Shown here: positions 239 through 64,000 of the stretch, in pieces
Layout: each line of letters begins with the position of its first letter
Position numbering within the stretch: the first letter of the stretch is position 1
Assembly: GCA_964372635.1 (NCBI GenBank)
Contig: CAYJQW010000005.1
Location: 44 to 64,043 of the forward strand
Length of the DNA stretch: 64,000 nucleotides
Reading direction: 5' to 3'
Origin: an uncultured Candidatus Saccharibacteria bacterium
GTDB lineage: Bacteria > Patescibacteriota > Andersenbacteria > UBA10190
Position numbers and translations under genes: made by a program
The notes under the pieces: generated by a model
What the model was told of the DNA's origin: nothing
The model's input: only the letters and a program-made list of their open reading frames with translations
Databases searched by the model: none

Positions 239-1267
239 TCAGCCGGAAAGACAAAGATTAAACACTTTAATTTGTCCATTCATTTTTTTTACCATTTTAT
301 CCAGTTCTTCATTCAGGATATTTTGCTCAGCAATCGCCTTATTAAAGTCGGCAACTTGCTGATCAAAGGAAGATTTTTTAAGTTCAAATTCAGCTCGTTT
401 GTCATTAGCTTTGGCTTGCAAAGCTGCACCAGCCGTCCAATATGGCTGGGCAGCGTCATTGCCTTGTTCCTGTGCAACTTTGTTTCCCTCATTAATTTTT
501 TCATTGCCTTGGTCGGTAAGATCTGAAATTTCAGAGGCGAGAGCCTCGAGCATGGCTTTGTCACGATCTATTTCAAGGCGTCGCGCTTCAATTGCCACTG
601 CATTATTCTTGAAAGAGGTCTTTTTCTGGTCGAATGTTTTTTGTAAGTCGGCATCAATACCAGGGCAACTAGACAATGGCAGAGCAAATGTCTGCACGGC
701 CAGCCAAGTGTCACGTCCTTCAAACTGGCCGCGACCAACAGCAATACCAAGCTCGCTCATGCCGGCATGTAAAATATTGGCACGATGACCTGGTGAATCC
801 ATCCAAGCTTGAACAAGGTCGGCATCATCTTTGAAATTTCCCAGGGCTAGATTTTCACCGACTCGGATATATTCATAGCTCACGGCCTCTACAACATCGG
901 CTGGACCCTCACCGGTTGGTGATTCGTGGGCAAAATACTGACGGCTAAACATATCAGCCATTTTATTGGCGGCTGCTTTATTAAGTACACTATTACCCGT
1001 TAATGTTTTTAATCCTGCCTGAGTACGATGCTGATTTGTTTGTGCCAAAACACCAGCCACGGTGAGGGGAGTCTGCGCTAATTTAAGAGTAGACGCTACC
1101 CGGAGCGGTCCAGGAGTTATGACTTCTCTAGCTTGTTTAAGCGTCTCGGCAAAATCAACAACACTGTTTGGCGTCGTATATATATTTTTCTGTCCAATCC
1201 AAAACCAAAGTCCACCGACCGCTCCCGTCAATAAAAGTAAAAGAAGTAAGGCGTAAATAAATCGCAT
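239..1267 (-). CDS. Membrane-anchored CAP/SCP (YkwD-like) domain protein with long C-terminal coiled-coil
   Basis: Hydrophobic N-terminus MRFIYALLLLLLLTGAVGG. CAP-like block HESPTGEGP...GENLA...W..SPGHRANIL...GIAV. C-terminal third is Q/E/K-rich and predicted coiled-coil. Confidence 0.6.
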   Translation of the reverse strand: MRFIYALLLLLLLTGAVGGLWFWIGQKNIYTTPNSVVDFAETLKQAREVITPGPLRVASTLKLAQTPLTVAGVLAQTNQHRTQAGLKTLTGNSVLNKAAANKMADMFSRQYFAHESPTGEGPADVVEAVSYEYIRVGENLALGNFKDDADLVQAWMDSPGHRANILHAGMSELGIAVGRGQFEGRDTWLAVQTFALPLSSCPGIDADLQKTFDQKKTSFKNNAVAIEARRLEIDRDKAMLEALASEISDLTDQGNEKINEGNKVAQEQGNDAAQPYWTAGAALQAKANDKRAEFELKKSSFDQQVADFNKAIAEQNILNEELDKMVKKMNGQIKVFNLCLSG

Positions 1268-2726: not shown

Positions 2727-3187
2727 ATGATCTTATTTTAATTAATGGGAGGGACATGTTTTTATGTGGTTCGGATTATTGACCGAACTAGCAAGTATTA
2801 GGGATTGAAGCCCTGTGTCTAATTTATGGGGTCAGATCAAGGACGGGATTGATACCTGTGTGGCTGAGTCAAAACGTACCTGTGAGCTCTAGTGTTTTTT
2901 AGTCATTCTCCGCTCTGCTTTGGATGACAGTAAGCATATTAAGTATATTTAGCTAATAAATAGGTTCATTTTGGTAGTTGCAGATCATTTTAGAACCAGC
3001 CTGTCTTGAAAATTCCGCTTAATTAGGCTGATAGAGAAAATTTTAAATAAATTTGCTGGCTTATTTTTGCAACATCTAAAAAAGTGTTGTCAGGACCATA
3101 AAATTTCCATTTTGTAATGTTTATCTGTGGATATGTTGTCAATAATCGCAATTGTTTTACTACAGAGAGCAGGTATATTAAAAAGCT

Positions 3188-3886
3188 ATGTTTATTTGGG
3201 GGAATCGTTTTTTGCCTGCTCTAGTAGTAATTATATCTGTTTTATTTTTGGGTACAGCCGGCGCAGTGGAGGCCTCACATGTAGACCGGGAGCAGCAGCG
3301 CCTTGAACGGGAACAGCGCTCTGCCGAGCGTGATGCCGAACGGGCTCTCAGACGTGCTGAGCGTGAAGCTGAACAAATAGCACGGGAAGAAAAAAGAAAT
3401 CAGGAAGAGGTAAAAGTGCCAACCTGTACTTGCCGTGCCAGTATAAGTTTTTCCCGGCCACAACAGCTTACTTTTCTTAACAACATTCTGACTTTTAAGC
3501 CGAGGCTAGATCTTAGAATCAGTTCCCGTGGTGATGCTGATGCACCAATGTGGCAAGCCAACATGTTGTCTTCAGGTCGTGCCACTTTTTCATCTGGAGA
3601 CATAGCTACGCCGCCTGATTCTAATTTTGAATTCAATAACAGTACAAATGAATTTCCATGTGGCACTACCTATAACCACAGTGGACTTGCTCTTGGCGGG
3701 GTGTCTTTATCAGGAGTTATGCGCACTCTGCTGGGTTTTGATAAAAATCTCAAGGGCACGATTATTATGAGCACCACACTGACAATTCCATCTTGTCAAC
3801 TTGAAGAAATGGTAATGAAGCAGTTTAGCTTTTCACTTACGGGAGCAAACAGCGCGCGGTTGGGTAGCTGGCGTTCGGTGCGCTAA
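3188..3886 (+). CDS. Secreted hypothetical protein with charged helical segment (RE/EQ-rich) and Cys-containing C-terminal domain
   Basis: N-terminal signal/TM LPALVVIISVLFLGTAGAVEA, then REQQRLEREQRSAERDAERALRRAEREAEQIAREEKR. Lies downstream of a ~500 bp AT-rich non-coding region. Confidence 0.45.
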   Translation: MFIWGNRFLPALVVIISVLFLGTAGAVEASHVDREQQRLEREQRSAERDAERALRRAEREAEQIAREEKRNQEEVKVPTCTCRASISFSRPQQLTFLNNILTFKPRLDLRISSRGDADAPMWQANMLSSGRATFSSGDIATPPDSNFEFNNSTNEFPCGTTYNHSGLALGGVSLSGVMRTLLGFDKNLKGTIIMSTTLTIPSCQLEEMVMKQFSFSLTGANSARLGSWRSVR

Positions 3887-4099
3887 ATGTGCTTATGCAC
3901 ATATTGTGGATAACGAGTACCTTGTCAGGCTCTTGTGCTGTGTTATCACTAAATAGAAGTCAAATCCGTGTGTTTTTAGGGGGAAGGGACTAGAGGCACA
4001 GTATTAATATCTGTGTTTTTTTATATCCATGCGAAACATGCGTATCTGTAAAATGACAATCATCAATACTCTGAAACTTTTGAAAGGAGGTGAGTACAG

Positions 4100-5236
4100 A
4101 TGATGACTAACCTAAAGAAGATTCTCTTCAGTGTATCTGCGCTCGCCTTTGCTTTTGCCATCACGGCTGCGCCAGTTATGGCTGCCGAGGTAGACGTAGA
4201 AGGGAACAACACGAACACTGGAGCTGACTCAGACAACGACAACGACTTCGATATTGACAACGACGTAGATGTTGACGTTGATAATGACGCTGACATCGAT
4301 AACGATGCTGACGTCGACGCCGATACTGGTGATAACGAACAAAATGAAAACACTAATGCCGGCGACCTCGAATCCGGGGTTGTGGACTTGTCAGGTGAGT
4401 GGGAAACCATCGTAAATGGTGGTGCTTCACTCTTGAGTGCTAGTACTGGAGATTTAGATGTCGAAGCCGACTTCGTAAACGACACAACTGGTGCTGACTC
4501 AGACAACGACAACGATCTTGACGTTGATAACGATGTTGATCTCGACTTGGACAATATAGCCGACATCGTGAACGATCTCGACTATGACGCCGATACTGGT
4601 GATAACGAACAAAATGAAAACACTAATGCCGGCAGTCTAATGTCGGGTGACGCTTCATTAATGTTTGACATCTTTAACGAAGCTAACAACGATGCTGGAT
4701 TCGCTGGCGCCGCTGGTAGCGACGTGATAATTGATGTCATTGGTGAGAACAACACCACAGGTTCCGATTCAGACAATAGCAACGACTTCGATATTGACAA
4801 CGACTTCGACTATAGTGTCGATAACGATGCTGATATTGATAATGATGTTGATGTAGACATCGACACTGGTGATAACGAGCAAAACGAAAACACCAATGCC
4901 GGTGACTTAAAGTCTGGCAAAGCCGAAGTGGTAGTGTCTCTCAACAATTCCGCCAATAACGGAAGTAGCGCCTCTAGTGCATATACAGGAAATCTCGGTG
5001 TAAAAGCCGACTTCTTAAACGACACAACTGGTGCTGACTCAGACAACGACAACGACCTCGACGTTGATAACGACGTAGATGTTGATGTTGATAATGACGC
5101 TGACATCGATAACGATGTTGACGTTGATGCCAACACTGGTGATAACGAACAAAACGAAAACACCAATGCAGGCAGTACAAAATCAGGAGATGTGAGCATT
5201 GAGCTCAACATTTCTAACGAAGCTAACAACAGCTAG
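4100..5236 (+). CDS. Secreted, extremely acidic tandem-repeat protein (poly Asp-x-Asp/Asn tracts; 4 repeats of ~90 aa)
   Basis: Strong RBS aaaggaggtg 7 nt upstream. Signal peptide ending AAPVMA|AE. Four repeats each carry SDNDND(F/L)D(I/V)DNDVDVDVDNDADIDND.DVDA(D/N)TGDNEQNENTNAG. Confidence 0.75.
   Translation: MMTNLKKILFSVSALAFAFAITAAPVMAAEVDVEGNNTNTGADSDNDNDFDIDNDVDVDVDNDADIDNDADVDADTGDNEQNENTNAGDLESGVVDLSGEWETIVNGGASLLSASTGDLDVEADFVNDTTGADSDNDNDLDVDNDVDLDLDNIADIVNDLDYDADTGDNEQNENTNAGSLMSGDASLMFDIFNEANNDAGFAGAAGSDVIIDVIGENNTTGSDSDNSNDFDIDNDFDYSVDNDADIDNDVDVDIDTGDNEQNENTNAGDLKSGKAEVVVSLNNSANNGSSASSAYTGNLGVKADFLNDTTGADSDNDNDLDVDNDVDVDVDNDADIDNDVDVDANTGDNEQNENTNAGSTKSGDVSIELNISNEANNS
4212..5180 (+). 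repeat. Four tandem ~270 bp near-identical DNA repeats inside the acidic protein gene
   Basis: Units start near 4212, 4488, 4758 and 5028 (periods 276, 270, 270). The first and fourth units are almost identical at nucleotide level, e.g. ggtgataacgaacaaaa(t/c)gaaaacac(t/c)aatgc. Confidence 0.7.
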
Positions 5237-5264
5237 TTTACTAACTGTAAGTGACCTTCGTGTC

Positions 5265-5292
5265 AGGAGGGTAAGTGTCTACTTACCCTCCT
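5265..5292 (+). terminator. Perfect 12 bp hairpin (aggagggtaagt-gtct-acttaccctcct) 30 nt after the stop; terminator-like, no U-tract
   Basis: Inverted repeat read directly. No T-run follows, so it may be a stability element or a leaky terminator between two co-directional surface-protein genes. Confidence 0.4.
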
Positions 5293-5387
5293 CCACGAGC
5301 GTCAAATGGTATAGTAGGGCGCTTTAACAATGAATTAACTGTAGAAATCTAGTGTAAGAAACAGGATCAATAAAAAATAATCTTCCT

Positions 5388-8300
5388 ATGATTCACCTAA
5401 AATTAAAAAGAATATATCTGAAAAAAACCGCAGCTGTTTTTATCATACTATGGTTTAGTCTACTGCCAACTGTCTCAGCTCTGGCTCAGGATGCCGTTGA
5501 CGCCAACGGTAATCCAACTGGTCCAACGGGCCCAACTGGTCCAAAAGGCCCAACTGGTGCTCCAGCATGTACTGGCGCTGGTTGTGGACAAGGAGTAGGA
5601 CAGGGTGAAAATCAAGGCGGGCCGAGCTCGGCTGATTTAGGTGCGGATGAAAACGGAAATTTACCTGAAGGTGTTGTCGACACAAGACAAGGCGCAAATC
5701 AGGGTAAATCTCAGGGCATAGTCAATGGTACGACTGCCACTAACAGTAATACTGGTTCAGGATCAAGCAATACAATTGACTCAGACACAAATAACTCGTC
5801 CTCGGCTACAACAAATAATACTGTCGCTGATAACACTGCGGCGACGGCAACGGCTACAACTGGCAGCAACACACAAAGCAAAAACACTAGTGCCAACGGG
5901 ATAACTTCTGGGAACGCCAGTATCAGTGCGACGGTTGTCAAAACAGATAACACGGCAACAATTGGCGGAACTGCTGGTTTATCTTCACAGCAATATGCCG
6001 GCACCTACAATGGTGATTATGCCGTCGGTTTTGGTGCCGGCACGGCGGCCCTGACTGGTGCCAGCGGGCCAAAATCATATCAGCTGACAAATCAGGTGAC
6101 CGGTTCTAATTCAACTAATGACATTAACGTTTTTACTACCTTAGAAGAACTGGTTGAAGTGCAAAATGATGGCAAGATAAATAATGATCTTAATGTTACG
6201 GCCGACACTGGTAATAATGCGGCCAACGAAAACACCGGTAATGGCTCGATCGTCACAGGCAATGCTAATGTGGCCGCAACTTTGGTTAATTTACTGAATA
6301 CAACTATCATCAACGGCGACCTCTGGATAACGGTCGCGGACATTTTCGGCAATTTGCAAGGCAATATCAATATTCCGGCTATGGCCAGCTATTTCTCAGG
6401 AGTTGTCGGTGGCGGCCTGGCTCTTGATGCCGGCAATTTAACCACCGGCTCAGACTCGCTTAACACGATTGCTGTTGATATAGATGATGTTGAGACATTT
6501 GATGTTACCAATGATGCTAAAATAAAAACAGCCGTTAATGCCACAGCGAATACGGGTAACAACGACACTATCTCTAACACCGGCGGCGGCTCGATCAATA
6601 CCGGCAATGCATCTGTGGCTGCCAGCAATGTTACGTTGGCTAACACAACGATTGAAGGCGGCAACTGGGGACTGTTTGTGGTCAATGCTCTGAACGGTTT
6701 TCTTGGTTTTTTGGTCGGTGACAACGGCAGTGTTAAAGCTCTCTCCCAAGATGAAACAATTCGTGAAATTACCGCTTATAATGACACTACCGGCGCAAAT
6801 TCTGTTAACACCATTGCAGTTACTGATGAACAGACACGAACCACAACCGTCGACAATGACGCTACAATCACCAATACAATCACGGCACTAGCTAATACCG
6901 GTGATAACGACGCTAATAGAAATACCGGTCAGGGAATTATTTCTACTGGGGATGCCGCTATTACTGCTTCAGCGATAAACATTGCGAATACAACAGTTAA
7001 AGATGGTTCTCTCTTTATTGCGGTTGTCAATGTCTTTGGTGATTGGTTTGGTGAACTTTTCTATGGTGGCAGCTCGCTGGCTCAAGCTGCAGCCAGCCAA
7101 GCGGCTGCCAATCAGGAAATTTCCCTAAACGTTGAGAATAATTCCACAGGATCTGAATCAACTAACACAGTTGATGTTGATGTTGATCGCTCGCATACGA
7201 CAACCATTACTAATGATGCTGACCTAGAATTTTCTCTTACGGCGGATGTGAATACCGGTGGTAATCGAGCTAATAAGAATACATTAGGGGCTAGTATTGA
7301 TACAGGTAATGCATTCTTAGCTCAGTACTCCCGAGCGGTAGCCAACGTGACCGGCGTGGCTGGTCCGGGCGGTCTGATTGTAAACGCCGACTTCACAAAT
7401 TCGGAAACTGGCTTTGATTCTAAAAATACTATCCGTGCCGATATTAATGACGAGCGAATTATCACTATCACAAATAACGCCAATCTCAACACCCTGCTTG
7501 GGTCATTAATTACTCCGGCGCTTGTTAATACCGGCCGCAATGAAGCCAATCAGAATACAATTGGTGGTGGTATTCAAACCGGCAACGTCAATGTTGATGC
7601 GGTGATTGCTAATCTCGTGAATAAAGTCCTAATCGCCTTGTCCGGAGAAGGGGTCGAGATCGATGCTACTTTTGTAAACACGTTGACAGGTGCCTTATCA
7701 ACCAATCTTAATGATCTGAATGCGGTGCGAACAGTACTCGCCACAGTGCTCAGTGATGCTGTCATAGACAATATTATTAACCTGTTGCTAAACACCGGCG
7801 CCAATATGTCTAATGAAAACACTAGTGCCAGCCTATCTGGTGCTGACGGCTTTAGTGCTCAAGCGACAGGTAGCGGCTCATCAATTGCCACTGGTGATAT
7901 TTGCGTAAACGGTGTGGTCACTAATAATGCTAATGCGTTTGGTATAAACGTAGATATTTCACAGAATGTAGATAATAACACCATCATCAATAATGATGTG
8001 ACCATTGACTCTACTACGGGCCAAAACGAGCAAAATAGAAATACTAGCGGTGCTCAAAATAATTCGACTGGAACCTGTGCGAAGTTAGCTCAAGTGCCAC
8101 CTGACAATAATCCACCAATGACTGGTGGAACGATCACACCACCACCTGTCGGTGGTGGTTCGGTAAATAGCACTGAGGTAGAGGCAGAAGACAGCGTCAG
8201 TGAAAGTGGTGCAGATAGTCAACCAATCGTGGCTGGTGTGTCATCGGCAAAAACACGGGTCGGATCTAATAGTATTCTTAAGCGTTTTCCGGTGGCGGGT

Positions 8301-8453
8301 AGTGAATCAATAGCTAAGTGGCTCTCAGGGTATCGAAATCCCGCTTGGCTGTATTTTTTAATTTCAGCCTTAGCTCTAGCAATCGTAGCCTCTTACTGTG
8401 ACAAAAAAGCACGGCAAGCCTTAGTTCTACCTGTGCCGATTGAAGCTGTCTAA
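5388..8453 (+). CDS. Large (1021 aa) secreted T/N/G-rich repeat surface protein with N-terminal collagen-like GPT triplets and a C-terminal TM anchor
   Basis: Signal peptide, then GNPTGPTGPTGPKGPTGAP. At least 7 divergent ~110 aa repeats carry (A/V)(D/N)TG.N.AN.NTG.G.I.TGNA.VAA...N.ANTT. The C-terminus AWLYFLISALALAIVASY plus CDKKARQ forms a TM anchor; no LPXTG motif. Confidence 0.7.
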   Translation: MIHLKLKRIYLKKTAAVFIILWFSLLPTVSALAQDAVDANGNPTGPTGPTGPKGPTGAPACTGAGCGQGVGQGENQGGPSSADLGADENGNLPEGVVDTRQGANQGKSQGIVNGTTATNSNTGSGSSNTIDSDTNNSSSATTNNTVADNTAATATATTGSNTQSKNTSANGITSGNASISATVVKTDNTATIGGTAGLSSQQYAGTYNGDYAVGFGAGTAALTGASGPKSYQLTNQVTGSNSTNDINVFTTLEELVEVQNDGKINNDLNVTADTGNNAANENTGNGSIVTGNANVAATLVNLLNTTIINGDLWITVADIFGNLQGNINIPAMASYFSGVVGGGLALDAGNLTTGSDSLNTIAVDIDDVETFDVTNDAKIKTAVNATANTGNNDTISNTGGGSINTGNASVAASNVTLANTTIEGGNWGLFVVNALNGFLGFLVGDNGSVKALSQDETIREITAYNDTTGANSVNTIAVTDEQTRTTTVDNDATITNTITALANTGDNDANRNTGQGIISTGDAAITASAINIANTTVKDGSLFIAVVNVFGDWFGELFYGGSSLAQAAASQAAANQEISLNVENNSTGSESTNTVDVDVDRSHTTTITNDADLEFSLTADVNTGGNRANKNTLGASIDTGNAFLAQYSRAVANVTGVAGPGGLIVNADFTNSETGFDSKNTIRADINDERIITITNNANLNTLLGSLITPALVNTGRNEANQNTIGGGIQTGNVNVDAVIANLVNKVLIALSGEGVEIDATFVNTLTGALSTNLNDLNAVRTVLATVLSDAVIDNIINLLLNTGANMSNENTSASLSGADGFSAQATGSGSSIATGDICVNGVVTNNANAFGINVDISQNVDNNTIINNDVTIDSTTGQNEQNRNTSGAQNNSTGTCAKLAQVPPDNNPPMTGGTITPPPVGGGSVNSTEVEAEDSVSESGADSQPIVAGVSSAKTRVGSNSILKRFPVAGSESIAKWLSGYRNPAWLYFLISALALAIVASYCDKKARQALVLPVPIEAV

Positions 8454-8510
8454 CTGATATTAGATAAAACTTGTCAGGAAACTTTGGGCGTTGTAAACTG
8501 ATGCGTTACC

Positions 8511-9425
8511 ATGAATAAATTGACTAACAAACAATTGAGTTGGATCTTAGCAGGAACTGTTGTCACTCTATTCATTGTGTTAGCGCTTGGTTTTCAACAA
8601 AGATCACTCCGTCAGGGACAAGTAATTCGAGCTGCCTTAGATAAATTAACGATTACTGAATCCCTCCACGCTAAAGCCGATTTTACTATGCATCTACCTA
8701 AGCGATTACGAAATATTCAGCGGCCATTTCGAGAAGTGCATGTAACTATTGAGGGGGATGTTAAAAAAGATGAAACTAATTTTCCACAGATAACCGGTAA
8801 ACTAAACGGAGACTTGACGGGCCCCGGTAATACATTCTTCTTTAACGGTGATGTACGTATTTTCAATGACGCCGTCGCTTTTCATTTGGTTGACTTTCCT
8901 GCTCTTTTAAATCCTCGCGGAACATTGTCGAACCGATGGACATATGTACCGACGAGTCTGCTCTCGACAAAAAATGGCAGTGATGTAACAAGAGAACTCA
9001 AAGACCTAGCTTCAAACTTAAAGTATAAAGGCACTAAAAAAATATCAGGTATTTCGGCCTATCATTACACCGGATCATTTTCAGCTGAACAAGAACAGAC
9101 TTTAAGTACTATATTGGGCCGGGCAATATCAGGGAATTTGGCCCTTGATGTCATCGCTCGACTACTTGCCGCAAATAATGTGAAATCATTTGACCTTTAT
9201 GTAAATACTAAAACCAATGAAATCACCCGACTGGCAATTAATTTTGTGCGACCCCTGACTAACGGTTCTGAAGTTTCAGTTGTCGATCTTAACCTTTCTT
9301 TTACGGATTATGGAAAGAAGGTTTCCATTGACCGGCCAGAGGAACAAGCAAAGGCCAGACCAGAAATCTTTGCCAAGCTGTTTGGCACGTCGAATGTTGG
9401 TTCTGTAACTGTTGAAGCTAATTAA
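8511..9425 (+). CDS. Signal-anchored extracytoplasmic hypothetical protein (304 aa)
   Basis: Single N-terminal TM (SWILAGTVVTLFIVLALGF), then a soluble domain with no motif I recognise. Confidence 0.5.
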   Translation: MNKLTNKQLSWILAGTVVTLFIVLALGFQQRSLRQGQVIRAALDKLTITESLHAKADFTMHLPKRLRNIQRPFREVHVTIEGDVKKDETNFPQITGKLNGDLTGPGNTFFFNGDVRIFNDAVAFHLVDFPALLNPRGTLSNRWTYVPTSLLSTKNGSDVTRELKDLASNLKYKGTKKISGISAYHYTGSFSAEQEQTLSTILGRAISGNLALDVIARLLAANNVKSFDLYVNTKTNEITRLAINFVRPLTNGSEVSVVDLNLSFTDYGKKVSIDRPEEQAKARPEIFAKLFGTSNVGSVTVEAN

Positions 9426-9447
9426 TTTTAAGTAATTACCTGATCTC

Positions 9448-11226
9448 ATGACCTATTTGCCGCGCGCTTTTTTTCTAGGCTTAAGCCTTGTTACTTTGTT
9501 ATCTGCCTCTATCCCACTGGTACCAATTCAGGCCGAAAGTACTGATGAGAATGTATATCTCGTTGTTGAATTAAAAGATACTACGAATGATCCGACAACC
9601 GATAAAGTTTTACGCCGACAATTAAGAGACGTCCGAAGTCTAAGTGACCGTTTGCCGCGCAACTATATAGCCGATGGAAAAAAATTGCGCACGCAAGATT
9701 TACGTCGCTGGCGAGTTGTTGCAGTACCAAGCAGCCGTGCCGATGTTTTACTAGCTGAGCTAAAAGCCAATCCAGCCGTCATTTCAGTTCGCCGCGAAAA
9801 TATCTATCAAACAACTCAATTAACTAACGATCCATTGCTGCCGCAGCAATATGCGCTGAGTGGTAGTCCTGGTATTTCTGTTCAAGCGACATCGGCCTGG
9901 GATAAAACGACAGGGTCGGGTAATACCGTTATAGCGATTATTGACGGCGGGGTCGATCTAACTCATGAAGATTTGATGGGAAAAATTTGGAAAAATCCTA
10001 AGGAAAGTCAAAACGGTCGGGATGATGATGGTAACGGCTTCATTGATGACATCTATGGCTGGGATTTTGTCACAAACCAGCCGGTCAGTTATGCGCACAA
10101 GCACGGCACACACGTGGCGGGCATTGCCGCCGCCAGTGGTAATAACGGCAAAGGTATATCTGGCGTGAATCACGGAGCGCGAATAATGTCTGTGCGGGTT
10201 TTAAACCAGTCTGGACTTGGTCGTGAAGAATGGATCGTTCGCGGAATCGAATACGCCGTGGCTAATGGTGCTAAAATTATTAATCTTAGTATTGCCGGCT
10301 CAGTTTCGGCACCTATGTTAGATGCCATTGAACAAGCTTATGCAAATAATGTCTTGGTTGTAGCCGCAGCCGGCAATAGTGGTCTTGATACAACTTTGCG
10401 CAAAGTATATCCGGTTTGTGCTGATCGTAATGGTATCAATATGGTCCTTGGTGTTGGGGCCACCAATAGTAAAGGTGAGCCGGCGCGTTTTAGTAATTAT
10501 GGAAGTTGTGTTGATGTTTCTGCTCCCGGGGATGATATATTAAGTACAACGCCGGGTAACCGCTATCAAGAAATGAGCGGTACTTCTATGAGTTCACCCT
10601 TGGCGGCCGGCATCGCCGGTTTATACCTGGCACAAAACCCAGGAGCGAGCCCAAGCCAGGTAATCGGGCGTTTGCGCGATTCGCTTGATTCATTTTCGGG
10701 TAGTAAGGCAGCTCTCTGGAACGCGAGATATAAAGGTAAATTAAATGCTGCCAAAGTGGTTGGTGCGCCGGCAGTGTCGGTGCCCTTGCCGACAATTTCG
10801 CCACAACCTTCTACCTCACCGGCATCTCCGCCAGCTACTCCCCAAGCTAATAATCCGGCAGAATTATCGATTGAGCTAGCTGGTCCCGGTGAAAATAAGC
10901 GCGGCACATCTTTCGTTTATACTATAACTGTTCGCAATAGCGGTGGTAGTTCGGCTACCAATGTTCAAGCGATCGCCGATATTGACCGCGACACTAATTT
11001 TATCTCTGGAGCAGACTGCAGTTTAGATGGCCGTGATGTAGTTTGCAGTCGCAACAGCCTTAGTGCTGGCAGCACCACCAGTTTTGCGATAACCGTGGAC
11101 GTGGCTGATGGTGCGCGTTGTAACTCGTCTTTACGCAGCCGAGCCACTGTCTACATGGATGAAAGAGGACGCAGCCGGCGGCAAGATAATAGCGAACGAC
11201 TAAAAACAACCGTGACTTGCGAATAG
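9448..11226 (+). CDS. Secreted subtilisin-like serine protease (peptidase S8) with Pro-rich linker and C-terminal DUF11-like beta-sandwich domain
   Basis: Catalytic triad blocks AIIDGGVD (Asp), HGTHVAGIAAASGNNG (His) and GTSMSSPLAAGIAGL (Ser). Ca-binding-like DDDGNGFIDD. Linker PQPSTSPASPPATPQ, then TYTITVRNSGGSSATNV (DUF11-like). Confidence 0.85.
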   Translation: MTYLPRAFFLGLSLVTLLSASIPLVPIQAESTDENVYLVVELKDTTNDPTTDKVLRRQLRDVRSLSDRLPRNYIADGKKLRTQDLRRWRVVAVPSSRADVLLAELKANPAVISVRRENIYQTTQLTNDPLLPQQYALSGSPGISVQATSAWDKTTGSGNTVIAIIDGGVDLTHEDLMGKIWKNPKESQNGRDDDGNGFIDDIYGWDFVTNQPVSYAHKHGTHVAGIAAASGNNGKGISGVNHGARIMSVRVLNQSGLGREEWIVRGIEYAVANGAKIINLSIAGSVSAPMLDAIEQAYANNVLVVAAAGNSGLDTTLRKVYPVCADRNGINMVLGVGATNSKGEPARFSNYGSCVDVSAPGDDILSTTPGNRYQEMSGTSMSSPLAAGIAGLYLAQNPGASPSQVIGRLRDSLDSFSGSKAALWNARYKGKLNAAKVVGAPAVSVPLPTISPQPSTSPASPPATPQANNPAELSIELAGPGENKRGTSFVYTITVRNSGGSSATNVQAIADIDRDTNFISGADCSLDGRDVVCSRNSLSAGSTTSFAITVDVADGARCNSSLRSRATVYMDERGRSRRQDNSERLKTTVTCE

Positions 11227-11276: not shown

Positions 11277-13073
11277 GTGCTACACTTGGAGGATATGGCT
11301 GAACGTATCCCGTCTGAAATGTCCGATCAAGATTCGGTATTAGATGAACCAAGTATTGCCAGCGACGAAGACACAGTTATCGGACAGGGTGACGTTGATA
11401 CAGAATTAGAAAACATAGCCTGGAAATTTACTGGTGAAACGACACTTGGTCTTGCCGAACAACATCAAGAAGCTAATCGCCTTAACAGTTTTCTAACAGA
11501 TAAATCAAATAAATTGTCGCAGCCAGCGCTGGAACGCGCTGATACTTTATTAGACAGACTGCGGGACACACGATGGGATAAGGAGGATTTTAATGCAACC
11601 TTTGGCAGTGAAGCTCGACATGTGGACATGGTATTAAAAAGTCCGGCAGGATTTAACCAAGTTGAAAAAATATTAGAAGATCTAAAAGAACGATCTTTTT
11701 CTGAAGTTTGGCGGGATGCCAAGGAAAGGGTAAGCCATGCCGAAGATATTCGTGCCTTATTAGTGGCTGGCGTTTTGCTCCGTGATGCCAATCGAGCCCA
11801 TGCTAATAGTCCTCGAGATATAGGTCAATTGCCAGATATGGATTCCTATAAAAAACAGCATGATAATCTTGAAACTGTCTTGTTAGGCGATTATATATGC
11901 CGTCTTGCCGAAAGCCATTATTTTCAAGAAGCAGGGGACGAGCAAATCGCGCAGCTAGCTCTAAAAAGAAATGGTGCAGAAGATATTAATCACACTATTG
12001 ATCAATTTCGGCCTTATTTGTTGAGTGAGCGGGTACCAAAAATTGTTAAGCAGAACATAAAGAAAACAGTGGCGACACTTCGTGTTGCCCGCCGGAGTTT
12101 AGAAACAGCAAGAGATGCAATTGATTTAGGGGCAAACAATGCAACAGCCATACCAAAAAGAGGTCAAACTTCTCCTGAAGATATATTTATCACGCCGGGT
12201 AAATTAACAGAGGCTGATGTAGTCGCTGCCACAGCGATGGAACAAGAACAAGCCATGGTTGAACTGACACGTGACTTATCTTATGCGACGCTGCAGAAAT
12301 TGAGTGAACCGGCGCGAACACAGCGTCTGGAAAAATTAATTAATGAGCAGCACAATCCCGATTGGCGGCGAAGACAAGCGCAACAAGAATTGGCTCGATG
12401 GCGAGAAGAAGACATAAATATTGCCTATATAGACTGGATATATCAAGTTGTCCACACCGTATCAATTGAGAGTGGTAATTCAGAAAAACTACAGACATCA
12501 GTCGACAATAATAATTCAGCGAATCGGGAAAAACATCGAAAGAAATATGCGGAACTGATGCAAAATGAATTGGGCTATGGTGATACTTTGCAGGAAGGTG
12601 GCTTCTTAAACAATATAACGTCTAACTGGCTCGAACCCTTGGCAGCCAAAATGCAAATGTTTCGTAACCCGCTCAAGTGGTTTAGCCGTCATGGTCAACA
12701 AGAGCTTCAGGTGGCGCGCCATGATTTAGCTGATACTTATAGACAGGCCGCTGAGTCAGCAGAATCTAATCTGGATGGTATTCAGCGGGAGATATTACGA
12801 GAGCTGGCTGATCGTCTGGAACAAATTACGCTGCGAGAGATGCAGGGTGGATTTGAGCCACAGCGGGATTTAGTGGAGCCTTGGAAACAATTGTTGCCCA
12901 TATTGCCTGATACATCGGTAGAAGAAGACGATGACGATTTGATAATTGACGATGCTGATGAGGCAGAGAATAAGTACCCGGTACCTCCAATGTTGCCGAT
13001 GCCTGATGGCACCTATGAACCAAAGCGGCGGGGGCGCTCTTGGTGGCGAATTATCTTTCCATTTCTAAACTGA
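11277..13073 (+). CDS. Hypothetical acidic cytoplasmic protein (~598 aa; alternative start ATG 11295)
   Basis: Long D/E-rich ORF with no TM and no motif I recognise. A GGAGG lies only 2 nt before ATG 11295; the frame opens at GTG 11277. Confidence 0.45.
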   Translation: MLHLEDMAERIPSEMSDQDSVLDEPSIASDEDTVIGQGDVDTELENIAWKFTGETTLGLAEQHQEANRLNSFLTDKSNKLSQPALERADTLLDRLRDTRWDKEDFNATFGSEARHVDMVLKSPAGFNQVEKILEDLKERSFSEVWRDAKERVSHAEDIRALLVAGVLLRDANRAHANSPRDIGQLPDMDSYKKQHDNLETVLLGDYICRLAESHYFQEAGDEQIAQLALKRNGAEDINHTIDQFRPYLLSERVPKIVKQNIKKTVATLRVARRSLETARDAIDLGANNATAIPKRGQTSPEDIFITPGKLTEADVVAATAMEQEQAMVELTRDLSYATLQKLSEPARTQRLEKLINEQHNPDWRRRQAQQELARWREEDINIAYIDWIYQVVHTVSIESGNSEKLQTSVDNNNSANREKHRKKYAELMQNELGYGDTLQEGGFLNNITSNWLEPLAAKMQMFRNPLKWFSRHGQQELQVARHDLADTYRQAAESAESNLDGIQREILRELADRLEQITLREMQGGFEPQRDLVEPWKQLLPILPDTSVEEDDDDLIIDDADEAENKYPVPPMLPMPDGTYEPKRRGRSWWRIIFPFLN

Positions 13074-13140: not shown

Positions 13141-13623
13141 ATGGCTTCATTTACCGAACGCTCTCCAAATGAGAAGGAAACATTAATTTTTGATTCACCG
13201 GATAAAGCGCGAGAATTCACTGAAGCAGCCCAGGAAAAGATTTCTAAAGAGAAGCGCAATGGTATGCGGCGTGACCGTGAAATTGTTGCCGAAGCTGTAG
13301 CTAACGAATTTGCACAATCTGGTCACGCTGTTCATTCGCTAAAAAAGCCGTGGCAGCATACCCCAGAAGAGCATGTTGAAGTAGAAGATCTGACTGACTT
13401 GGCATTTTCCAAAGACTTAACGACGGCGCTCCGCAAAGCAAAAGTTAGCCGCCACTATCCGCGCAATCTTGACCTTTTTCACGATGTCTTAACGGGGGAG
13501 CTTTATGAAGCTTTACGTGAGCACAAGCTTCATAAGCAACCCCTGATTGGCTGGACTATACTAACACTCAGTGTGGTTATAATCTTCTTTATCATTTTTC
13601 TACTCGTTCTTCTAACCTTATAA
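13141..13623 (+). CDS. Small tail-anchored membrane protein (160 aa, C-terminal TM) immediately upstream of the VirB4-like ATPase
   Basis: Soluble charged N-terminus, then GWTILTLSVVIIFFIIFLLVLLTL at the extreme C-terminus. Confidence 0.4.
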   Translation: MASFTERSPNEKETLIFDSPDKAREFTEAAQEKISKEKRNGMRRDREIVAEAVANEFAQSGHAVHSLKKPWQHTPEEHVEVEDLTDLAFSKDLTTALRKAKVSRHYPRNLDLFHDVLTGELYEALREHKLHKQPLIGWTILTLSVVIIFFIIFLLVLLTL

Positions 13624-13739: not shown

Positions 13740-16226
13740 ATGTCTTTCTTATTTACTCTAATTTTAATTTTGTCGTCGGTTTTTGCCACGGCCTTGTTCC
13801 TTTGGCTTATTTGGCAGACAATTCGCGAGCATGCCCGCCTGCGACGGACACTGGACATTGTCATGATGCAGGTTATGGTTCCAAAAGACTTAACAAAAGA
13901 AGAACGTGAAGAAGGCGTGGGGCAGGCCATTAAAGAGCGTATTGCGGTGGCAGAACAGTGGTTGTCAACTCTGGCCAATCTGCCAATAAAGTCACTAGAT
14001 CGCCTGATATATGGCCGGCCAATTCTCGTTCTTGAAATAGCCGCTCGTCAGGACGGAGTAATCGCTTTTTATGCTGGTACGGAGAGACGCTTTGCTGATC
14101 ATCTTGAGAAGCAAATTTATGCTTTTTATCCCGAGGCTGAAGTGGCGTTAGTCTCTGACTATACTATTTTTGAGTCAGGGGACACGATGAAATTTGGCTG
14201 GTTGCAATTACAGGAAAAACATCACTTGCCCTTGGCCACATATAAGGAGCTAGAAGCTGATCCGATGCAGGCTATGACAGGGGCACTGGCGAAACTACAA
14301 GATGGTGACGCGGCGGTGATTCAATTTGTCTGTCAAGCTGCGGGTAAAAGAGTTCACAAAAAAGGTCGGCGGGCGGCCCGTAAAACCATGCAAGGCAAGC
14401 AATTTGATGTTAGTGGTAATGGTCTTGGTATTAGATCAATCCGCGATGCCCTCACCAAGACAAAAGATGATAAGGCGGCAGCTGAAGCCCAAGCTGCCAA
14501 GCTGACACCGCGTTCTCAGGAGAGAGTTGAGTTAGTCGAGCAAAAGGTAGCTCAGCAGCAATTTTCTGTTAATATTCGCCTTGGCGTCTCAACAAGGCAA
14601 CCTGAAGATGCGGAACGTGCCTTTAATGCAGTTGTCGGTGCCTTTACTCAATATGATTTGCCAGATCTAAATCGATTGCGGTTACGGACAGTTAAAAAAC
14701 AGTCACCATTCATTCGTAGTTTGATTTTTCGTATCCCGCGTCCAAAAACAGCTAGCGCCTTGTCGACGACAGAGCTCACCTCGCTGTTTCATTTTCCGTT
14801 GCCAACAACGGCCACTCCCAACATTCAATGGCGAGGTGCAAAAAATGCTCCCGTTCCAACCGACATGCCAACTGAAGGGATGTTGCTCGGGCACAATGTT
14901 TATCGCGGCATTAATACACCGGTCTATTTACAAAGTGATGATCGCCGTCGTCACTTGTACCTTATTGGACAGACAGGCACCGGCAAAACCACATTATTTT
15001 TCAATATGATTATTCAAGATATTGTCGCCGGCCATGGGGTTGGTGTGGTTGATCCGCATGGTGACTTAATTGAAGACATTTTACTTCATATTCCAAAGGA
15101 GCGTACCAAGGATGTAATTCTTTTTGATCCGCGAGATACCGAAAGGCCACTCGGTTTCAATATTCTGGAAGCACGCGATCCGGCTCAGAAAGATTTAGTG
15201 GTCAATGAAGTTGTTCAAATCCTGCAGAAACTTGCTGCTCGTCTTAATCCTGAGTCTATTGGACCAATGTTTGAGCACTATTTGCGCAATGCCTTATTGG
15301 CGCTCGCGCAAGATCCCAATGCTACTTTAATTGATGTACCGCGAATGTTTGTTGATGATGGCTTTCGTCAAGCCATATTGAAACTAGAACAAGATCCTAC
15401 CGTCAGGCAGTTCTGGGAAAAAGAATATGCTCAATCGCAACGCGGCCAGATGTCAGCGGATATGTTGAGTTATGTGGTGAGTAAATTAGGGCGTTTTATT
15501 GGTAATGTGGTTGTTCGCAATATAATCGGTCAATCTCATTCTAGCTTTGATGTCCGAGAAGTCATGGATCAACAAAAAATATTATTATGTAACTTATCCA
15601 AGGGCCATCTTGGTGATATCAATGCTGACTTGTTGGGCTTTGTTCTGGTCTCAAAAATACAGATTGCAGCTCTTGGCCGAGCTAATGTGGCGGAAGATAA
15701 ACGTCCTGATTTTTACCTTTACTTAGACGAATTTCAAAACTTTACAACTGATAGTATTTCAACAATTCTTTCCGAAGCTAGGAAATACCGTCTTAACCTC
15801 AATTTGACCCACCAATTTATCCAGCAATTAGAGGAAAATATTCGTGAGGCAGTTTTTGGCAACGTTGGTACAGTGATCAGTTATCGTATTGGTGTTGAAG
15901 ATGCTGAATTTATAGCACCGCAGTTTTCGCCAGTGTTTGCTGAATATGACCTAGTTAATTTGGAGAGGTTTACAGCAGTTGCTCGGCCGTTGGTTAATGG
16001 CACTCCAGCACGATCTTTCAGTTTGCGTATTGCGCCGCCACCGCTAAGTGGTGATCCCGAGACCAGAGAATTAATTCGTGAACAGTCAAAGCAACGCTAT
16101 GGACGCTCCAAGGTTTTGGTTGAGGAAGAAATCATCAAGCGGTTTCAAATTGGTGATCCTAAAGCCGCGCCAAAATCGGGGGCTGGCGGGGACTACTTAA
16201 GTGAGTCTTTGTTCGACATAAAGTGA
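13740..16226 (+). CDS. Membrane-anchored FtsK-HerA superfamily P-loop ATPase, VirB4/TraC-like (828 aa)
   Basis: N-terminal TM. Walker A LYLIGQTGTGKTT is at ~residue 405-415, followed by VGVVDPHGDL. Walker B YLYLDEFQNF is at ~residue 660. Size and Walker A position match VirB4-type ATPases rather than VirD4. Confidence 0.55.
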   Translation: MSFLFTLILILSSVFATALFLWLIWQTIREHARLRRTLDIVMMQVMVPKDLTKEEREEGVGQAIKERIAVAEQWLSTLANLPIKSLDRLIYGRPILVLEIAARQDGVIAFYAGTERRFADHLEKQIYAFYPEAEVALVSDYTIFESGDTMKFGWLQLQEKHHLPLATYKELEADPMQAMTGALAKLQDGDAAVIQFVCQAAGKRVHKKGRRAARKTMQGKQFDVSGNGLGIRSIRDALTKTKDDKAAAEAQAAKLTPRSQERVELVEQKVAQQQFSVNIRLGVSTRQPEDAERAFNAVVGAFTQYDLPDLNRLRLRTVKKQSPFIRSLIFRIPRPKTASALSTTELTSLFHFPLPTTATPNIQWRGAKNAPVPTDMPTEGMLLGHNVYRGINTPVYLQSDDRRRHLYLIGQTGTGKTTLFFNMIIQDIVAGHGVGVVDPHGDLIEDILLHIPKERTKDVILFDPRDTERPLGFNILEARDPAQKDLVVNEVVQILQKLAARLNPESIGPMFEHYLRNALLALAQDPNATLIDVPRMFVDDGFRQAILKLEQDPTVRQFWEKEYAQSQRGQMSADMLSYVVSKLGRFIGNVVVRNIIGQSHSSFDVREVMDQQKILLCNLSKGHLGDINADLLGFVLVSKIQIAALGRANVAEDKRPDFYLYLDEFQNFTTDSISTILSEARKYRLNLNLTHQFIQQLEENIREAVFGNVGTVISYRIGVEDAEFIAPQFSPVFAEYDLVNLERFTAVARPLVNGTPARSFSLRIAPPPLSGDPETRELIREQSKQRYGRSKVLVEEEIIKRFQIGDPKAAPKSGAGGDYLSESLFDIK

Positions 16227-51400: not shown

Positions 51401-51478
51401 AACAACCGACTAATTTAACATGGCGGCTTTAAAACCTCAAGTATTACTCTTAAATGGATAGGTGTTGCAGGTACTACC

Positions 51479-54990: not shown

Positions 54991-55023
54991 AGCCCCGATG
55001 TACCCCTTTTACTCCACCTGTCT

Positions 55024-55995: not shown

Positions 55996-56041
55996 CGTAC
56001 AGAACTTGTGCTACTTTTGTCGATAAGGAGGGGTCCTTCAT

Positions 56042-56542: not shown

Positions 56543-56554
56543 CGGATATACGTT

Positions 56555-59647: not shown

Positions 59648-59656
59648 ACCTAAGTT

Positions 59657-62842: not shown

Positions 62843-62917
62843 GCTTGTCGAGGAACAGGGTTAATCTTAAGTGCGTCGAAGAAGATTGACACCTCATCTG
62901 GCCAGCAGTATCGTGAC

Positions 62918-63811: not shown

Positions 63812-63873
63812 CGTGAAACTTTTGCCTGTGCGCAGGCGAAAGGATTAGTTTGGATATTGGTATGCAAATACCA

Positions 63874-63933
63874 AACTTTAACATTTCTTATATGTCGCGG
63901 CGGTGTCGTTTCGGCAAGAATCGAACTAACATC
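63874..63933 (+). repeat. Repeat copy C (right boundary of the GC-rich block)
   Basis: aactttaacatttcttatatgtcgcggcggtgtcgtttcggcaagaatcg is identical to copy B over ~54 nt. Two small hairpins precede it (gcctgtgcgcaggc; ttggtatgcaaataccaa). Confidence 0.65.
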
Positions 63934-64000
63934 ATAGTGTTTGTCTTTCATGTTTTGTGAAAAAATGATGGCTACCCAAATAAGCTCCTACATCTTTCGT

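What the first reader, a model, noticed from the sequence alone, without database searches (positions are those of the whole stretch)
4100..5236. Secreted hyper-acidic poly(Asp-x) tandem-repeat protein, very recently expanded
After the signal peptide the protein is almost entirely four ~90 aa repeats. Each holds runs like DSDNDNDFDIDNDVDVDVDNDADIDNDADVDAD, about 20 alternating Asp/Asn-x positions, followed by a conserved TGDNEQNENTNAG module. The encoding ~270 bp DNA units are nearly identical, so the expansion is recent and copy number is probably variable. A surface polyanion of this density could bind divalent cations (Ca/Mg/metal sink) or act as a wall spacer. It could also be an electrostatic adhesin toward a host surface. 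I know of no characterised family with this exact repeat.
Basis: seen in the sequence. Interest (0 to 1): 0.7.

Follow-up and report, generated by a model that had tools for sequence, protein, structure and literature searches.

The report
Conserved hyper-acidic beta-solenoid surface protein
This is a real, secreted protein carrying about 63 aspartates on one flat face, but it is an old, conserved and probably abundant cell-surface building block of the uncultured "candidate phyla radiation" bacteria, not a recently expanded repeat.

Summary
The ORF (4100-5236, +, 378 aa), its signal peptide, the four in-register 90-aa repeats and the Asp-x tracts are real. The mature protein is 24% Asp with net charge about -98. 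The DNA units are not nearly identical: they share 56-77% identity, and many codons for identical residues differ. At least 36 orthologues (41-71% identity, 364-379 aa) keep the same four units with position-specific orthology. The expansion is therefore ancient and the copy number fixed.

It lies directly upstream of a larger paralogue with a C-terminal membrane anchor (a dockerin in some distant lineages). It has an invariant maximal ribosome-binding site, a covarying 3' stem-loop and high-expression codon bias.

Best reading: it is the abundant unanchored subunit of a CPR-specific two-paralogue surface assembly, and its Asp lattice needs divalent cations. That function is inferred, not shown.

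The parts
4085..4093 (+). Shine-Dalgarno AGGAGGTGA, 6 nt before the ATG
   Evidence: The 9-mer occurs once in the 64-kb window. GGAGGTGAGT.CAG is invariant (16 invariant columns in all) and the fuller consensus GAAAGGAGGTGAGTACAG nearly so across 10 orthologous loci.
4100..5236 (+). CDS of the 378-aa hyper-acidic repeat protein
   Evidence: ORF listed. 205 homologues at E<=1e-3; 2,453 cluster representatives by profile search. AF2 pLDDT 80.5, pTM 0.71, all-beta.
4100..4183 (+). Signal peptide (aa 1-28, predicted cleavage VMA|AE)
   Evidence: Read from the sequence (n-region KK, hydrophobic core, A-x-A-like site). Conserved in orthologues (consensus ...AxPVLAAEVDV). AF2 gives a helix at 4-18 with pLDDT<50. 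No signal-peptide predictor was available.
4184..4453 (+). Repeat unit 1 (aa 29-118)
   Evidence: 270-nt in-register family. Per-unit strand pattern 10 + 31 + short + 11 residues.
4454..4723 (+). Repeat unit 2 (aa 119-208)
   Evidence: Closest to unit 4 (76% aa, 77% nt).
4724..4993 (+). Repeat unit 3 (aa 209-298)
   Evidence: Closest to unit 1 (A-B-A-B pattern).
4994..5233 (+). Repeat unit 4 (aa 299-378); it lacks the inter-unit loop and the protein ends directly after its last strand
4226..4324 (+). Asp-x tract of unit 1 (aa 43-75): 17 of 17 outward positions are Asp. Equivalent tracts lie at 4496-4594, 4766-4864 and 5036-5134.
   Evidence: One search gives 17, 15, 15 and 16 Asp per tract, with inner positions S N N F I N V V V N A I N A V A. 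Family profile. AF2 models one unbroken 31-residue strand per unit.
5257..5299 (+). Conserved stem-loop immediately after the stop codon (candidate terminator, attenuator or mRNA stabiliser)
   Evidence: Folding energy -39.2 kcal/mol, z -5.5. Present in all 11 orthologous loci inspected. RNAalifold on 12 sequences: 20 pairs, 13 with compensatory changes. No U-tract and no Rfam match.
5388..8453 (+). Adjacent larger paralogue (1021 aa): signal peptide, collagen-like GPT triplets, about 8 related repeat units, disordered linker, invariant LxRFPVAG motif, C-terminal TM helix with basic tail
3188..3886 (+). Conserved upstream cassette gene (232 aa; N-terminal TM, charged helix, Cys-containing C-terminal domain); function unknown
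   Evidence: Syntenic at 25-36% identity in 11 related loci. No Pfam or PDB relatives.
8511..9425 (+). Conserved downstream cassette gene (304 aa; N-terminal TM anchor); function unknown
   Evidence: Syntenic at 35-44% identity in 11 related loci. Only a sub-threshold LppX_LprAFG hit, E 0.16. No PDB relatives.
9448..11226 (+). S8 subtilase with a DUF11 domain; a recurrent but not constant neighbour (candidate processing protease, link uncertain)
   Evidence: Pfam Peptidase_S8 2e-53 and DUF11 2e-9. tblastn matches in 10 of 26 loci.

Best explanation
The gene encodes a Sec-secreted, unanchored, four-unit flattened beta-solenoid. It belongs to a large, so far undescribed protein family of CPR/Patescibacteria.

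Architecture: each 90-aa unit most likely forms one rung. A 31-residue strand makes one face, and three shorter strands make the opposite face. Alternate residues of the long strand point inward; these are conserved Asn ladders and aliphatic residues. The others point outward, and 63 of those 68 are Asp. One face is therefore a regular lattice of carboxylates.

Proposed mechanism (inferred): such a lattice is stable only with bound counter-ions. Folding and assembly outside the cell would then depend on Ca2+ or Mg2+, as in RTX beta-rolls.

Proposed role (inferred): the protein has no capping element at either end. It is made in large amounts. Its gene always sits next to a larger paralogue that is tethered to the cell by a C-terminal membrane anchor (a dockerin in some lineages). 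I therefore propose it is the major, abundant subunit of a two-paralogue cell-surface assembly (a fibre or S-layer-like coat) built on or beside the anchored paralogue. This would give these wall-bearing, outer-membrane-less cells a cation-binding polyanionic surface.

Shown: the gene, the repeats, conservation, family size and taxonomy, the fold class, paralogy and synteny with an anchored partner, and the expression signals.

Inferred: one rung per unit, cation dependence, polymerisation or co-assembly, and surface location of the small protein.
For: - Reality and age: ORF and 4 x 270-nt register; diverged units; the 36 relatives aligned are 364-379 aa long; positional orthology of units.
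- Family: 2,453 representatives at E<=1e-3 and 294 at E<=1e-30. All named genomes are CPR: Andersen-, Woyke-, Davies-, Gottesman-, Berkel- and Parcubacteria. No Pfam or NCBIfam model.
- Alternation over 148 units: even positions are N 97-100% or hydrophobic 80-100%. Odd positions are 43-86% acidic but variable (D/E/T/N/K). About 16 inward residues on the long strand match about 15 on the other strands.
- No caps: the protein starts at strand 1 right after the signal peptide and ends after the last strand. Terminal units are as conserved as internal ones (0.60 and 0.61 against 0.61 and 0.53). A natural relative has at least 10 units in tandem.
- Abundance: maximal 9-nt SD, unique in the window and invariant in orthologues. 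Covarying 3' stem-loop between the small and large genes. GAC 57% and AAC 74% against a background of 32-33% (p 2e-5 and 2e-9), in the same direction in all 10 loci tested.
- Context: CPR S-layers or sheaths have been seen by microscopy, but no paper found in these searches names their proteins (PMC13293708; bioRxiv 10.1101/2022.04.20.488981; PMC5220378).
Against: - No experiment bears on location, abundance, metal binding or polymerisation.
- Foldseek against the PDB found nothing significant (best E 0.37).
- The distal (N-terminal) end of the anchored paralogue's solenoid is preceded by an ~85-residue disordered segment. End-on templating is therefore not obvious, and no multimer prediction was possible.
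- Asp content varies from 3 to 23% across family members, so hyper-acidity is a lineage trait rather than a family requirement.
- The 3' stem-loop lacks a U-tract.
- No sortase gene or known wall-binding domain was found in the window.
Confidence: 0.5

Rival explanations
1. It is a released, soluble cation-binding protein, not part of a surface structure. It would act as a divalent-metal buffer or scavenger, or as a modulator of carbonate or phosphate mineral nucleation around the cell, like Asp-rich biomineralisation proteins.
For: It has no anchor, wall-binding domain or sorting signal. Net charge is about -98, with a regular carboxylate lattice. Many source genomes come from groundwater (record titles).
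Against: Adjacency to an anchored paralogue is conserved across CPR. The solenoid ends are uncapped. Relatives with only 3-9% Asp keep the same architecture, so the fold rather than the charge is the conserved property.
Confidence: 0.2
2. It is an adhesin: the acidic face binds a host-cell surface or a mineral surface electrostatically, supporting the episymbiotic lifestyle.
For: Beta-solenoid adhesins are among the fold matches: UpaB, EtpA, FHA, SRRP, PfbA. Cultivated CPR are episymbionts (PMC13293708). Outward residues are variable.
Against: It is not tethered to the cell itself. High-expression signals and a strongly conserved four-unit length suit a bulk structural component better than a specific adhesin. 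No ligand-binding domain is present.
Confidence: 0.12
3. It is an intrinsically disordered polyanionic spacer, like the Ser-Asp stalks of staphylococcal Sdr/Clf proteins, and the AlphaFold solenoid is a repeat-driven artefact.
For: The only curated-library hits are to SD-repeat regions of ClfA, ClfB and SdrC/D. The sequence has low complexity. Foldseek finds no significant match.
Against: The hits score 17-23 bits against cut-offs of 999-2500. The alternate inward positions are 80-100% conserved as Asn or aliphatic across 148 units, and Gly, Thr, Ser and Asn at the turns are invariant. Disordered spacers do not show this. pLDDT is 80-95 in the tracts.
Confidence: 0.05
4. One reading: a recently expanded, copy-number-variable contingency-type repeat locus.
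For: Short identical in-register DNA patches of 25-48 nt exist between units. The four TGDNEQNENTNAG modules are identical here but differ between units in orthologues. Inter-unit identity here is at the top of the family range. This suggests some short-tract homogenisation.
Against: Overall unit identity is 56-77% with abundant synonymous differences. No 270-nt array is called by TRF. The four-unit length is fixed in the 36 aligned relatives of 41-71% identity. Units show positional orthology.
Confidence: 0.03

Closest known systems
Curli (CsgA major subunit and CsgB cell-bound nucleator) and Fap functional amyloids
   Different: No Curlin_rpt or other Pfam match. The rung is about 90 aa with a 31-residue strand, against about 22 aa in CsgA. 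The host is a monoderm-like CPR with no CsgG/E/F-type outer-membrane secretion genes nearby. The protein is extremely acidic. Polymerisation is unproven.
SufB/SufD flattened right-handed beta-helix
   Different: SufBD proteins are cytoplasmic Fe-S assembly proteins with flanking helical domains. Sequence identity is 5-9%, there is no Pfam match, and the protein here is secreted. The resemblance is in fold only.
RTX beta-roll proteins, including the RsaA S-layer and the Ca2+-dependent antifreeze protein MpAFP
   Different: There is no GGxGxDxUx nonapeptide and no HemolysinCabind hit. Export is by a Sec signal peptide rather than type I secretion. The acidic residues lie on a strand face, not in the turns.
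Ser-Asp repeat stalks of staphylococcal MSCRAMMs (ClfA, ClfB, SdrC/D)
   Same: Both have alternating Asp-x composition. These are the only curated-library hits.
   Different: Scores are 17-23 bits against cut-offs of 999-2500. There is no ligand-binding A domain and no LPXTG. The x positions here are conserved Asn or aliphatic residues, which indicates a folded strand.
Two-component S-layers with a separate anchor protein (for example Sulfolobus SlaA/SlaB; from my own knowledge)
   Same: The genes are adjacent. One product has no anchor. The other has a C-terminal TM anchor on a stalk and a possible trimerisation element (here collagen-like GPT triplets).
   Different: There is no sequence or fold relationship. 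Here the two proteins are paralogues and the unanchored one is the smaller. Lattice formation is untested.

Membership tests
Undescribed CPR 'TG-N-NT' beta-solenoid repeat family (this family) | 90-aa unit with invariant T-G..S, N, N, T-G-x-N, N-T, G, [ST]-G and N positions and an alternating inward Asn/aliphatic strand | tested here: met
   All four units carry the invariant columns. Per-position profile. Profile search finds 2,453 representatives.
Undescribed CPR 'TG-N-NT' beta-solenoid repeat family (this family) | Small unanchored member immediately upstream of a larger C-terminally anchored paralogue | tested here: met
   Window genes 4100-5236 and 5388-8453. The same arrangement occurs in nearly all 26 loci.
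Curli CsgA/CsgB (Pfam Curlin_rpt) | Curlin repeat sequence signature (S-x5-Q-x-G-x2-N-x-A-x3-Q, ~22 aa) | tested here: not met
   No Pfam family at E<=1.
Curli CsgA/CsgB (Pfam Curlin_rpt) | Two-sheet beta-solenoid with one repeat per rung | tested here: inconclusive
Curli CsgA/CsgB (Pfam Curlin_rpt) | csgEFG-type outer-membrane secretion and assembly genes in the locus | tested here: not met
   Neighbours are a CAP-domain protein, S8 subtilase, TrwB-like ATPase, DUF3048, holA and proteins without matches.
Curli CsgA/CsgB (Pfam Curlin_rpt) | Self-polymerisation into amyloid fibres | not testable with these tools
   Needs ThT and EM assays or multimer modelling.
RTX / HemolysinCabind | GGxGxDxUx nonapeptide repeats (PF00353) | tested here: not met
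   No hit. There are no GGxGxD motifs in the sequence.
Thrombospondin type 3 repeats | DxDxDGxxDxxD calcium-binding repeats (Pfam TSP_3) | tested here: not met
   No hit at E<=1. The Asp tracts lack the Gly and Cys pattern.
MSCRAMM Ser-Asp repeat adhesins | Full-length match above the NCBIfam cut-off, an A domain and an LPXTG signal | tested here: not met
   17-23 bits against cut-offs of 999-2500, restricted to the SD region. The protein ends ...NEANNS with no sorting signal.
S-layer proteins (functional class) | Known wall-anchoring module (SLH, CWB2 or similar) | tested here: not met
   No Pfam or NCBIfam domain.
S-layer proteins (functional class) | Highly expressed, secreted, acidic protein | tested here: met
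   Signal peptide and composition. SD, codon bias and 3' stem-loop. Expression itself was not measured.
S-layer proteins (functional class) | Forms a two-dimensional lattice on the cell | not testable with these tools
   Needs cryo-ET or in vitro assembly.
Left-handed beta-helix hexapeptide-repeat proteins | Regular 6-residue [LIV]-G-x4 period giving 18-residue triangular coils (Pfam Hexapep) | tested here: not met

The most novel reading that the evidence does not exclude
This family is the long-sought protein basis of the S-layer or sheath seen on CPR/Patescibacteria cells. The assembly would be a Sec-exported, cation-cross-linked, open-ended beta-solenoid polymer, a monoderm analogue of curli. 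An abundant hyper-acidic four-rung subunit would stack onto or pack against a membrane-, sortase- or dockerin-tethered paralogue. Its carboxylate lattice would take over the cation-binding polyanion role that teichoic acids play in Gram-positive walls.
Probability: 0.25. Interest if true: 0.8.

Novelty: new variant of a known kind. Interest (0 to 1): 0.6.

Why it matters
CPR bacteria make up a large share of bacterial diversity, yet the make-up of their cell envelope is essentially unknown. Microscopy shows S-layers or sheaths, but no paper found here names their proteins (PMC13293708, PMC5220378).

This family is a concrete candidate for a major envelope component. It is CPR-wide and lacks any curated model. 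It appears highly expressed and secreted, and it comes as a conserved pair of an unanchored and an anchored paralogue. It is directly testable by metaproteomics, recombinant expression with and without Ca2+/Mg2+, and cryo-ET.

The predicted design is also unusual among beta-solenoids: a 31-residue strand per rung, with 63 Asp on one flat face. That could interest protein engineers working on metal- or mineral-binding scaffolds. A Pfam-type model built from these alignments would annotate thousands of 'hypothetical proteins'.

Tried and rejected
- Pfam, NCBIfam and PDB sequence searches gave nothing usable for the 378-aa protein, the 1021-aa paralogue or the two flanking cassette genes.
- Foldseek against the PDB gave no significant match.
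- The AlphaFold-database library was unavailable. No annotated structural neighbours or their organisms could be obtained.
- The homologue search for the 304-aa cassette protein returned only 3 hits, too few to model it. The second structure job went to the 1021-aa paralogue instead.
- Exact look-ups to name the source record failed. The taxon is inferred only from the nearest loci (Andersenbacteria-like).
- The consensus promoter/terminator scan was uninformative: counts matched the shuffles, and the stem-loop lacks a U-tract.
- No Rfam family matches in 3000-9600.
- Literature searches on CPR combined with S-layer, curli, amyloid, beta-solenoid or sortase terms found no description of this family. 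A direct look-up of one older CPR-ultrastructure paper by a DOI recalled from memory (10.1038/ncomms7372) found it is not held.
- A DNA-mimic role was considered because of the charge. It was rejected because the protein has a conserved signal peptide.
- A sortase gene was looked for in the window and none was found among the ORFs scanned.
- Model coordinates are not exposed to scripts, so rung geometry and Asp-Asp distances could not be measured.
Full report
**1. The observation**

The ORF at 4100..5236 (+) is real and encodes 378 aa. The N-terminus (MMTNLKKILFSVSALAFAFAITAAPVMA|AE) is a typical Sec signal by eye, and it is conserved in orthologues.

The rest of the protein consists of four units at exactly 270-nt spacing. 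The mature protein is 23.7% Asp and 16.3% Asn, with D+E = 102 against K+R = 4. Each unit holds a 33-residue tract in which every second residue is Asp. That gives 17, 15, 15 and 16 Asp out of 17 positions, or 63 of 68 in all, out of 83 Asp in the protein. TGDNEQNENTNAG is identical in the four units.

- The units are 56-77% identical at nucleotide level and 53-76% at protein level.
- 25-62% of codons for identical residues differ synonymously.
- Tandem Repeats Finder sees only 18-nt sub-periods, no 270-nt array.
- The longest identical in-register runs are 14-48 nt.

**2. Age of the repeats**

A search of 5.8 billion proteins gave 205 homologues. The 36 relatives aligned (41-71% identity, many independent assemblies) are all 364-379 aa long.

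Unit i of the window protein is more similar to unit i of these orthologues (0.53-0.61) than to their other units (0.44-0.57). Against the nearest orthologue, same-unit identity is 0.70-0.78. Units within the window protein are 0.57-0.65 identical; only u2/u4 reaches 0.76. The pattern is A-B-A-B (u1~u3, u2~u4), which indicates an ancient duplication of a two-unit module.

The four-unit architecture therefore predates the divergence of these species, and the copy number is fixed in this orthologous group. An assembly artefact is excluded by recurrence.

Some within-protein homogenisation is possible. There are identical patches, the four modules are identical, and inter-unit identity is at the top of the family range. 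It could equally reflect the extreme Asp enrichment.

**3. The family**

No Pfam family matches at E<=1. NCBIfam gives only low-complexity hits to the Ser-Asp stalks of ClfA, ClfB and SdrC/D, at 17-23 bits against cut-offs of 999-2500. No PDB sequence matches a profile of the orthologues.

A profile search of 1.84 billion cluster representatives finds 2,453 proteins at E<=1e-3, 1,360 at 1e-10 and 294 at 1e-30. They fall into size classes of about 285, 370, 550-600 and 900-1100 aa, corresponding to 3, 4, 6 and 8 or more units.

Every named source is a CPR/Patescibacteria genome: Andersenbacteria, Berkelbacteria, Woykebacteria, Daviesbacteria, Gottesmanbacteria, Staskawiczbacteria and Parcubacteria. 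A few MAGs carry automatic 'Saccharibacteria' or 'Gammaproteobacteria' labels. The nearest loci are Andersenbacteria-like. The window is chromosomal, with rpoB, rpoC, ftsK, recA and holA.

The family is acidic overall (mean 11% Asp, net -0.13 per residue). At 22% Asp the window protein sits at the top of the range. Similarly extreme members occur in Berkelbacteria and Daviesbacteria.

**4. Structure**

AlphaFold2 with the 37-sequence alignment gives pLDDT 80.5 and pTM 0.71. The model is all-beta. Each unit has a 10-residue strand, an unbroken 31-residue strand (the Asp-x tract), short strands and an 11-residue strand.

A position-by-position profile over 148 units is independent of AlphaFold.
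- Even positions of the tract are N 97%, N 97%, hydrophobic 93% and 99%, N/H, hydrophobic 80%, 86% and 99%, N 100%, A 87%, hydrophobic 100%, N 99%, then hydrophobic 99%, 95% and 97%.
- Odd positions are 43-86% acidic but freely exchange D, E, T, N and K.
- Gly, Thr, Ser and Asn at the turns are invariant.

This is the signature of a folded strand with one buried face carrying Asn ladders and one solvent face. It is not the signature of a disordered spacer. About 16 inward residues on the long strand match about 15 on the three shorter strands. This is why I infer one rung per unit and a two-sheet, flattened cross-section. I could not inspect coordinates, so this step is inferred.

The mature protein begins at strand 1 and ends after the last strand, so it has no capping element. 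Terminal units are as conserved as internal ones. A natural relative has at least 10 units in a row.

**5. Genomic context**

The next gene (5388-8453, 1021 aa) is a paralogue: BLASTP E 3e-29 over several registers. Its parts are as follows.
- A signal peptide.
- Collagen-like GPT/GPK triplets (aa 41-57; TRF period 9).
- About eight longer units.
- A disordered linker of roughly 90 residues.
- An LxRFPVAG motif that is invariant in 41/41 orthologues.
- A C-terminal TM helix with a basic tail.

tblastn and ORF inspection of 26 loci from GTDB species representatives show the same module almost everywhere. A small, unanchored, more acidic protein is followed by a larger paralogue with a C-terminal TM and basic tail, or in some lineages a C-terminal dockerin. 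In one distant genome a third paralogue carries a canonical LPATG signal and is followed by a sortase gene.

In the Andersenbacteria-like group a four-gene cassette is conserved: the 232-aa protein, this protein, the 1021-aa paralogue and the 304-aa protein. S8 subtilase, a CAP-domain protein and a DUF8128/TrwB-like ATPase are recurrent but not constant neighbours.

**6. Expression signals**

- The ribosome-binding site AGGAGGTGA is the maximal complement of the anti-SD. It is unique in the 64-kb window. GGAGGTGAGT.CAG is invariant, and the fuller consensus GAAAGGAGGTGAGTACAG nearly so, in 10 orthologous loci whose upstream regions otherwise barely align.
- A strong stem-loop follows the stop codon directly (5257-5299; -39 kcal/mol, z -5.5). 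It is present in every orthologous locus. 13 of its 20 pairs show compensatory changes.
- The gene uses GAC for 57% of Asp and AAC for 74% of Asn. Background genes use 32-33% (p 2e-5 and 2e-9). The bias runs the same way in all 10 loci tested.

Together these point to a very abundant product and a lower dose of the downstream anchored paralogue. This pattern is typical of major/minor subunit operons. That is an inference; no expression data were available.

**7. Mechanism proposed**

The protein is exported unfolded by Sec. Outside the cell it folds into a four-rung strip, and one face carries a lattice of about 63 carboxylates.

Neighbouring carboxylates in a parallel sheet sit only about 5-7 A apart (general beta-sheet geometry). 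The fold should therefore need bound Ca2+ or Mg2+. This is analogous to RTX beta-rolls, which fold only in the Ca-rich exterior (established knowledge). Cation dependence would also prevent premature folding in the cytoplasm.

The ends are uncapped, the product is abundant, and an anchored paralogue of the same fold is always next door. I therefore propose that it assembles, end-to-end or laterally through cation bridges, into a fibre or S-layer-like coat held on the cell by the large paralogue.

This works like curli, where CsgA is the major secreted subunit and CsgB the cell-bound nucleating paralogue and both are beta-solenoids (PMC10192328). It also resembles a two-component S-layer. It is not a member of either family: the defining sequence signatures and accessory genes were tested and are absent.

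Confidence is high (about 0.8-0.9) for the descriptive part: a conserved, secreted beta-solenoid family with an anchored partner. It is moderate (about 0.4-0.5) for surface assembly and cation dependence.

**8. Rivals**

- A released cation buffer or mineralisation modulator (0.2).
- An electrostatic adhesin (0.12).
- A disordered SD-like spacer (0.05; contradicted).

**9. Novelty and score**

No paper in the held library describes this family. Reviews state that CPR S-layers have been seen but say nothing about their proteins (PMC13293708). One genome paper says the structure of the CPR envelope remains unclear (PMC5220378).

The kind of protein, a beta-solenoid surface repeat protein, is known. 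The family, its 90-aa rung with a 31-residue poly-Asp-faced strand, and the conserved unanchored/anchored paralogue pair in CPR are new. I file it as a new variant of a known kind, with interest 0.6.

Noticed in passing
window 5257-5299 (and downstream of the orthologous gene in L001, L002, L005-L013): A strongly conserved stem-loop sits immediately after the stop codon of the small gene. 13 of its 20 pairs show compensatory changes across 12 loci. It has no U-tract and no Rfam match, so it may be a CPR-type terminator, an attenuator or an mRNA-stabilising element.
   Followed up: partly
window 5508-5558 (aa 41-57 of the 1021-aa protein): Collagen-like Gly-Pro-Thr/Lys triplets (GNPTGPTGPTGPKGPTG) occur near the N-terminus of the anchored paralogue. 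Orthologues have them in variable number. The segment resembles the GPT repeats of Bacillus exosporium BclA (my own knowledge) and hints at trimerisation or glycosylation. AF2 models it as disordered.
   Followed up: partly
window 8277-8300 (aa 964-971) and 8343-8426 (TM helix): The motif L-x-R-F-P-V-A-G is invariant in 41/41 orthologues. It lies about 15 residues before the C-terminal TM helix and basic tail, so it looks like an undescribed sorting or cleavage signal ([LF]Px[TA]G-like). No sortase gene was found in the window, and no NCBIfam sorting-domain model matches.
   Followed up: partly
P0322, P0324, P0326; L021 9420-12512; L024 9772-12603: In some distant CPR lineages (for example Staskawiczbacteria) the large paralogue ends in a type I dockerin (PF00404) instead of a TM anchor. 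This implies a cohesin-dockerin tether on CPR cell surfaces.
   Followed up: no
L003 13700-14842 and 14939-15415: A third, 380-aa family member ends in a canonical LPATG, TM and charged tail, and is followed by a sortase gene. At least some family members are therefore sortase substrates.
   Followed up: partly
window 13740-16226, with 11277-13073 and 13141-13623: A DUF8128/DUF87/TrwB-VirD4-like ATPase is preceded by a 598-aa and a tail-anchored 160-aa protein without family matches. The 160-aa protein and the ATPase recur downstream of the cassette in several orthologous loci; the 598-aa protein matched in only one (L006). Whether this is a dedicated export or assembly ATPase or an unrelated module is unknown.
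   Followed up: no
window 239-1267 (-) and 9448-11226 (+): A CAP-domain (PR-1-like) secreted protein and an S8 subtilase with DUF11 are recurrent neighbours of the module, in about 13 and about 10 of 26 loci respectively.
   Followed up: partly
window ~48000-64000: G+C steps from about 0.43 to about 0.51. The genes beyond are a GT2 glycosyltransferase, a UDP-glucose dehydrogenase, a MacB-type ABC transporter, a peptidoglycan-binding protein and two AcrB-type RND pumps. RND pumps are unusual for a CPR genome. This may be a horizontally acquired island or a chimeric join in the assembly.
   Followed up: no
window 4100-5236: The exact 378-aa sequence is absent from the 15-billion-protein collection, although both flanking proteins from the same 64,080-bp NCBI contig are present. 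The public gene call probably uses another start or misses this low-complexity gene.
   Followed up: no
L002 5161-8870; L003 16520-19383: Genes for Peptidase_M73 (TasA/camelysin-like; a weak hit in L002), LTD-domain and HemolysinCabind proteins cluster near the module in two other CPR genomes but not in this window. They may belong to a second surface-fibre system.
   Followed up: no
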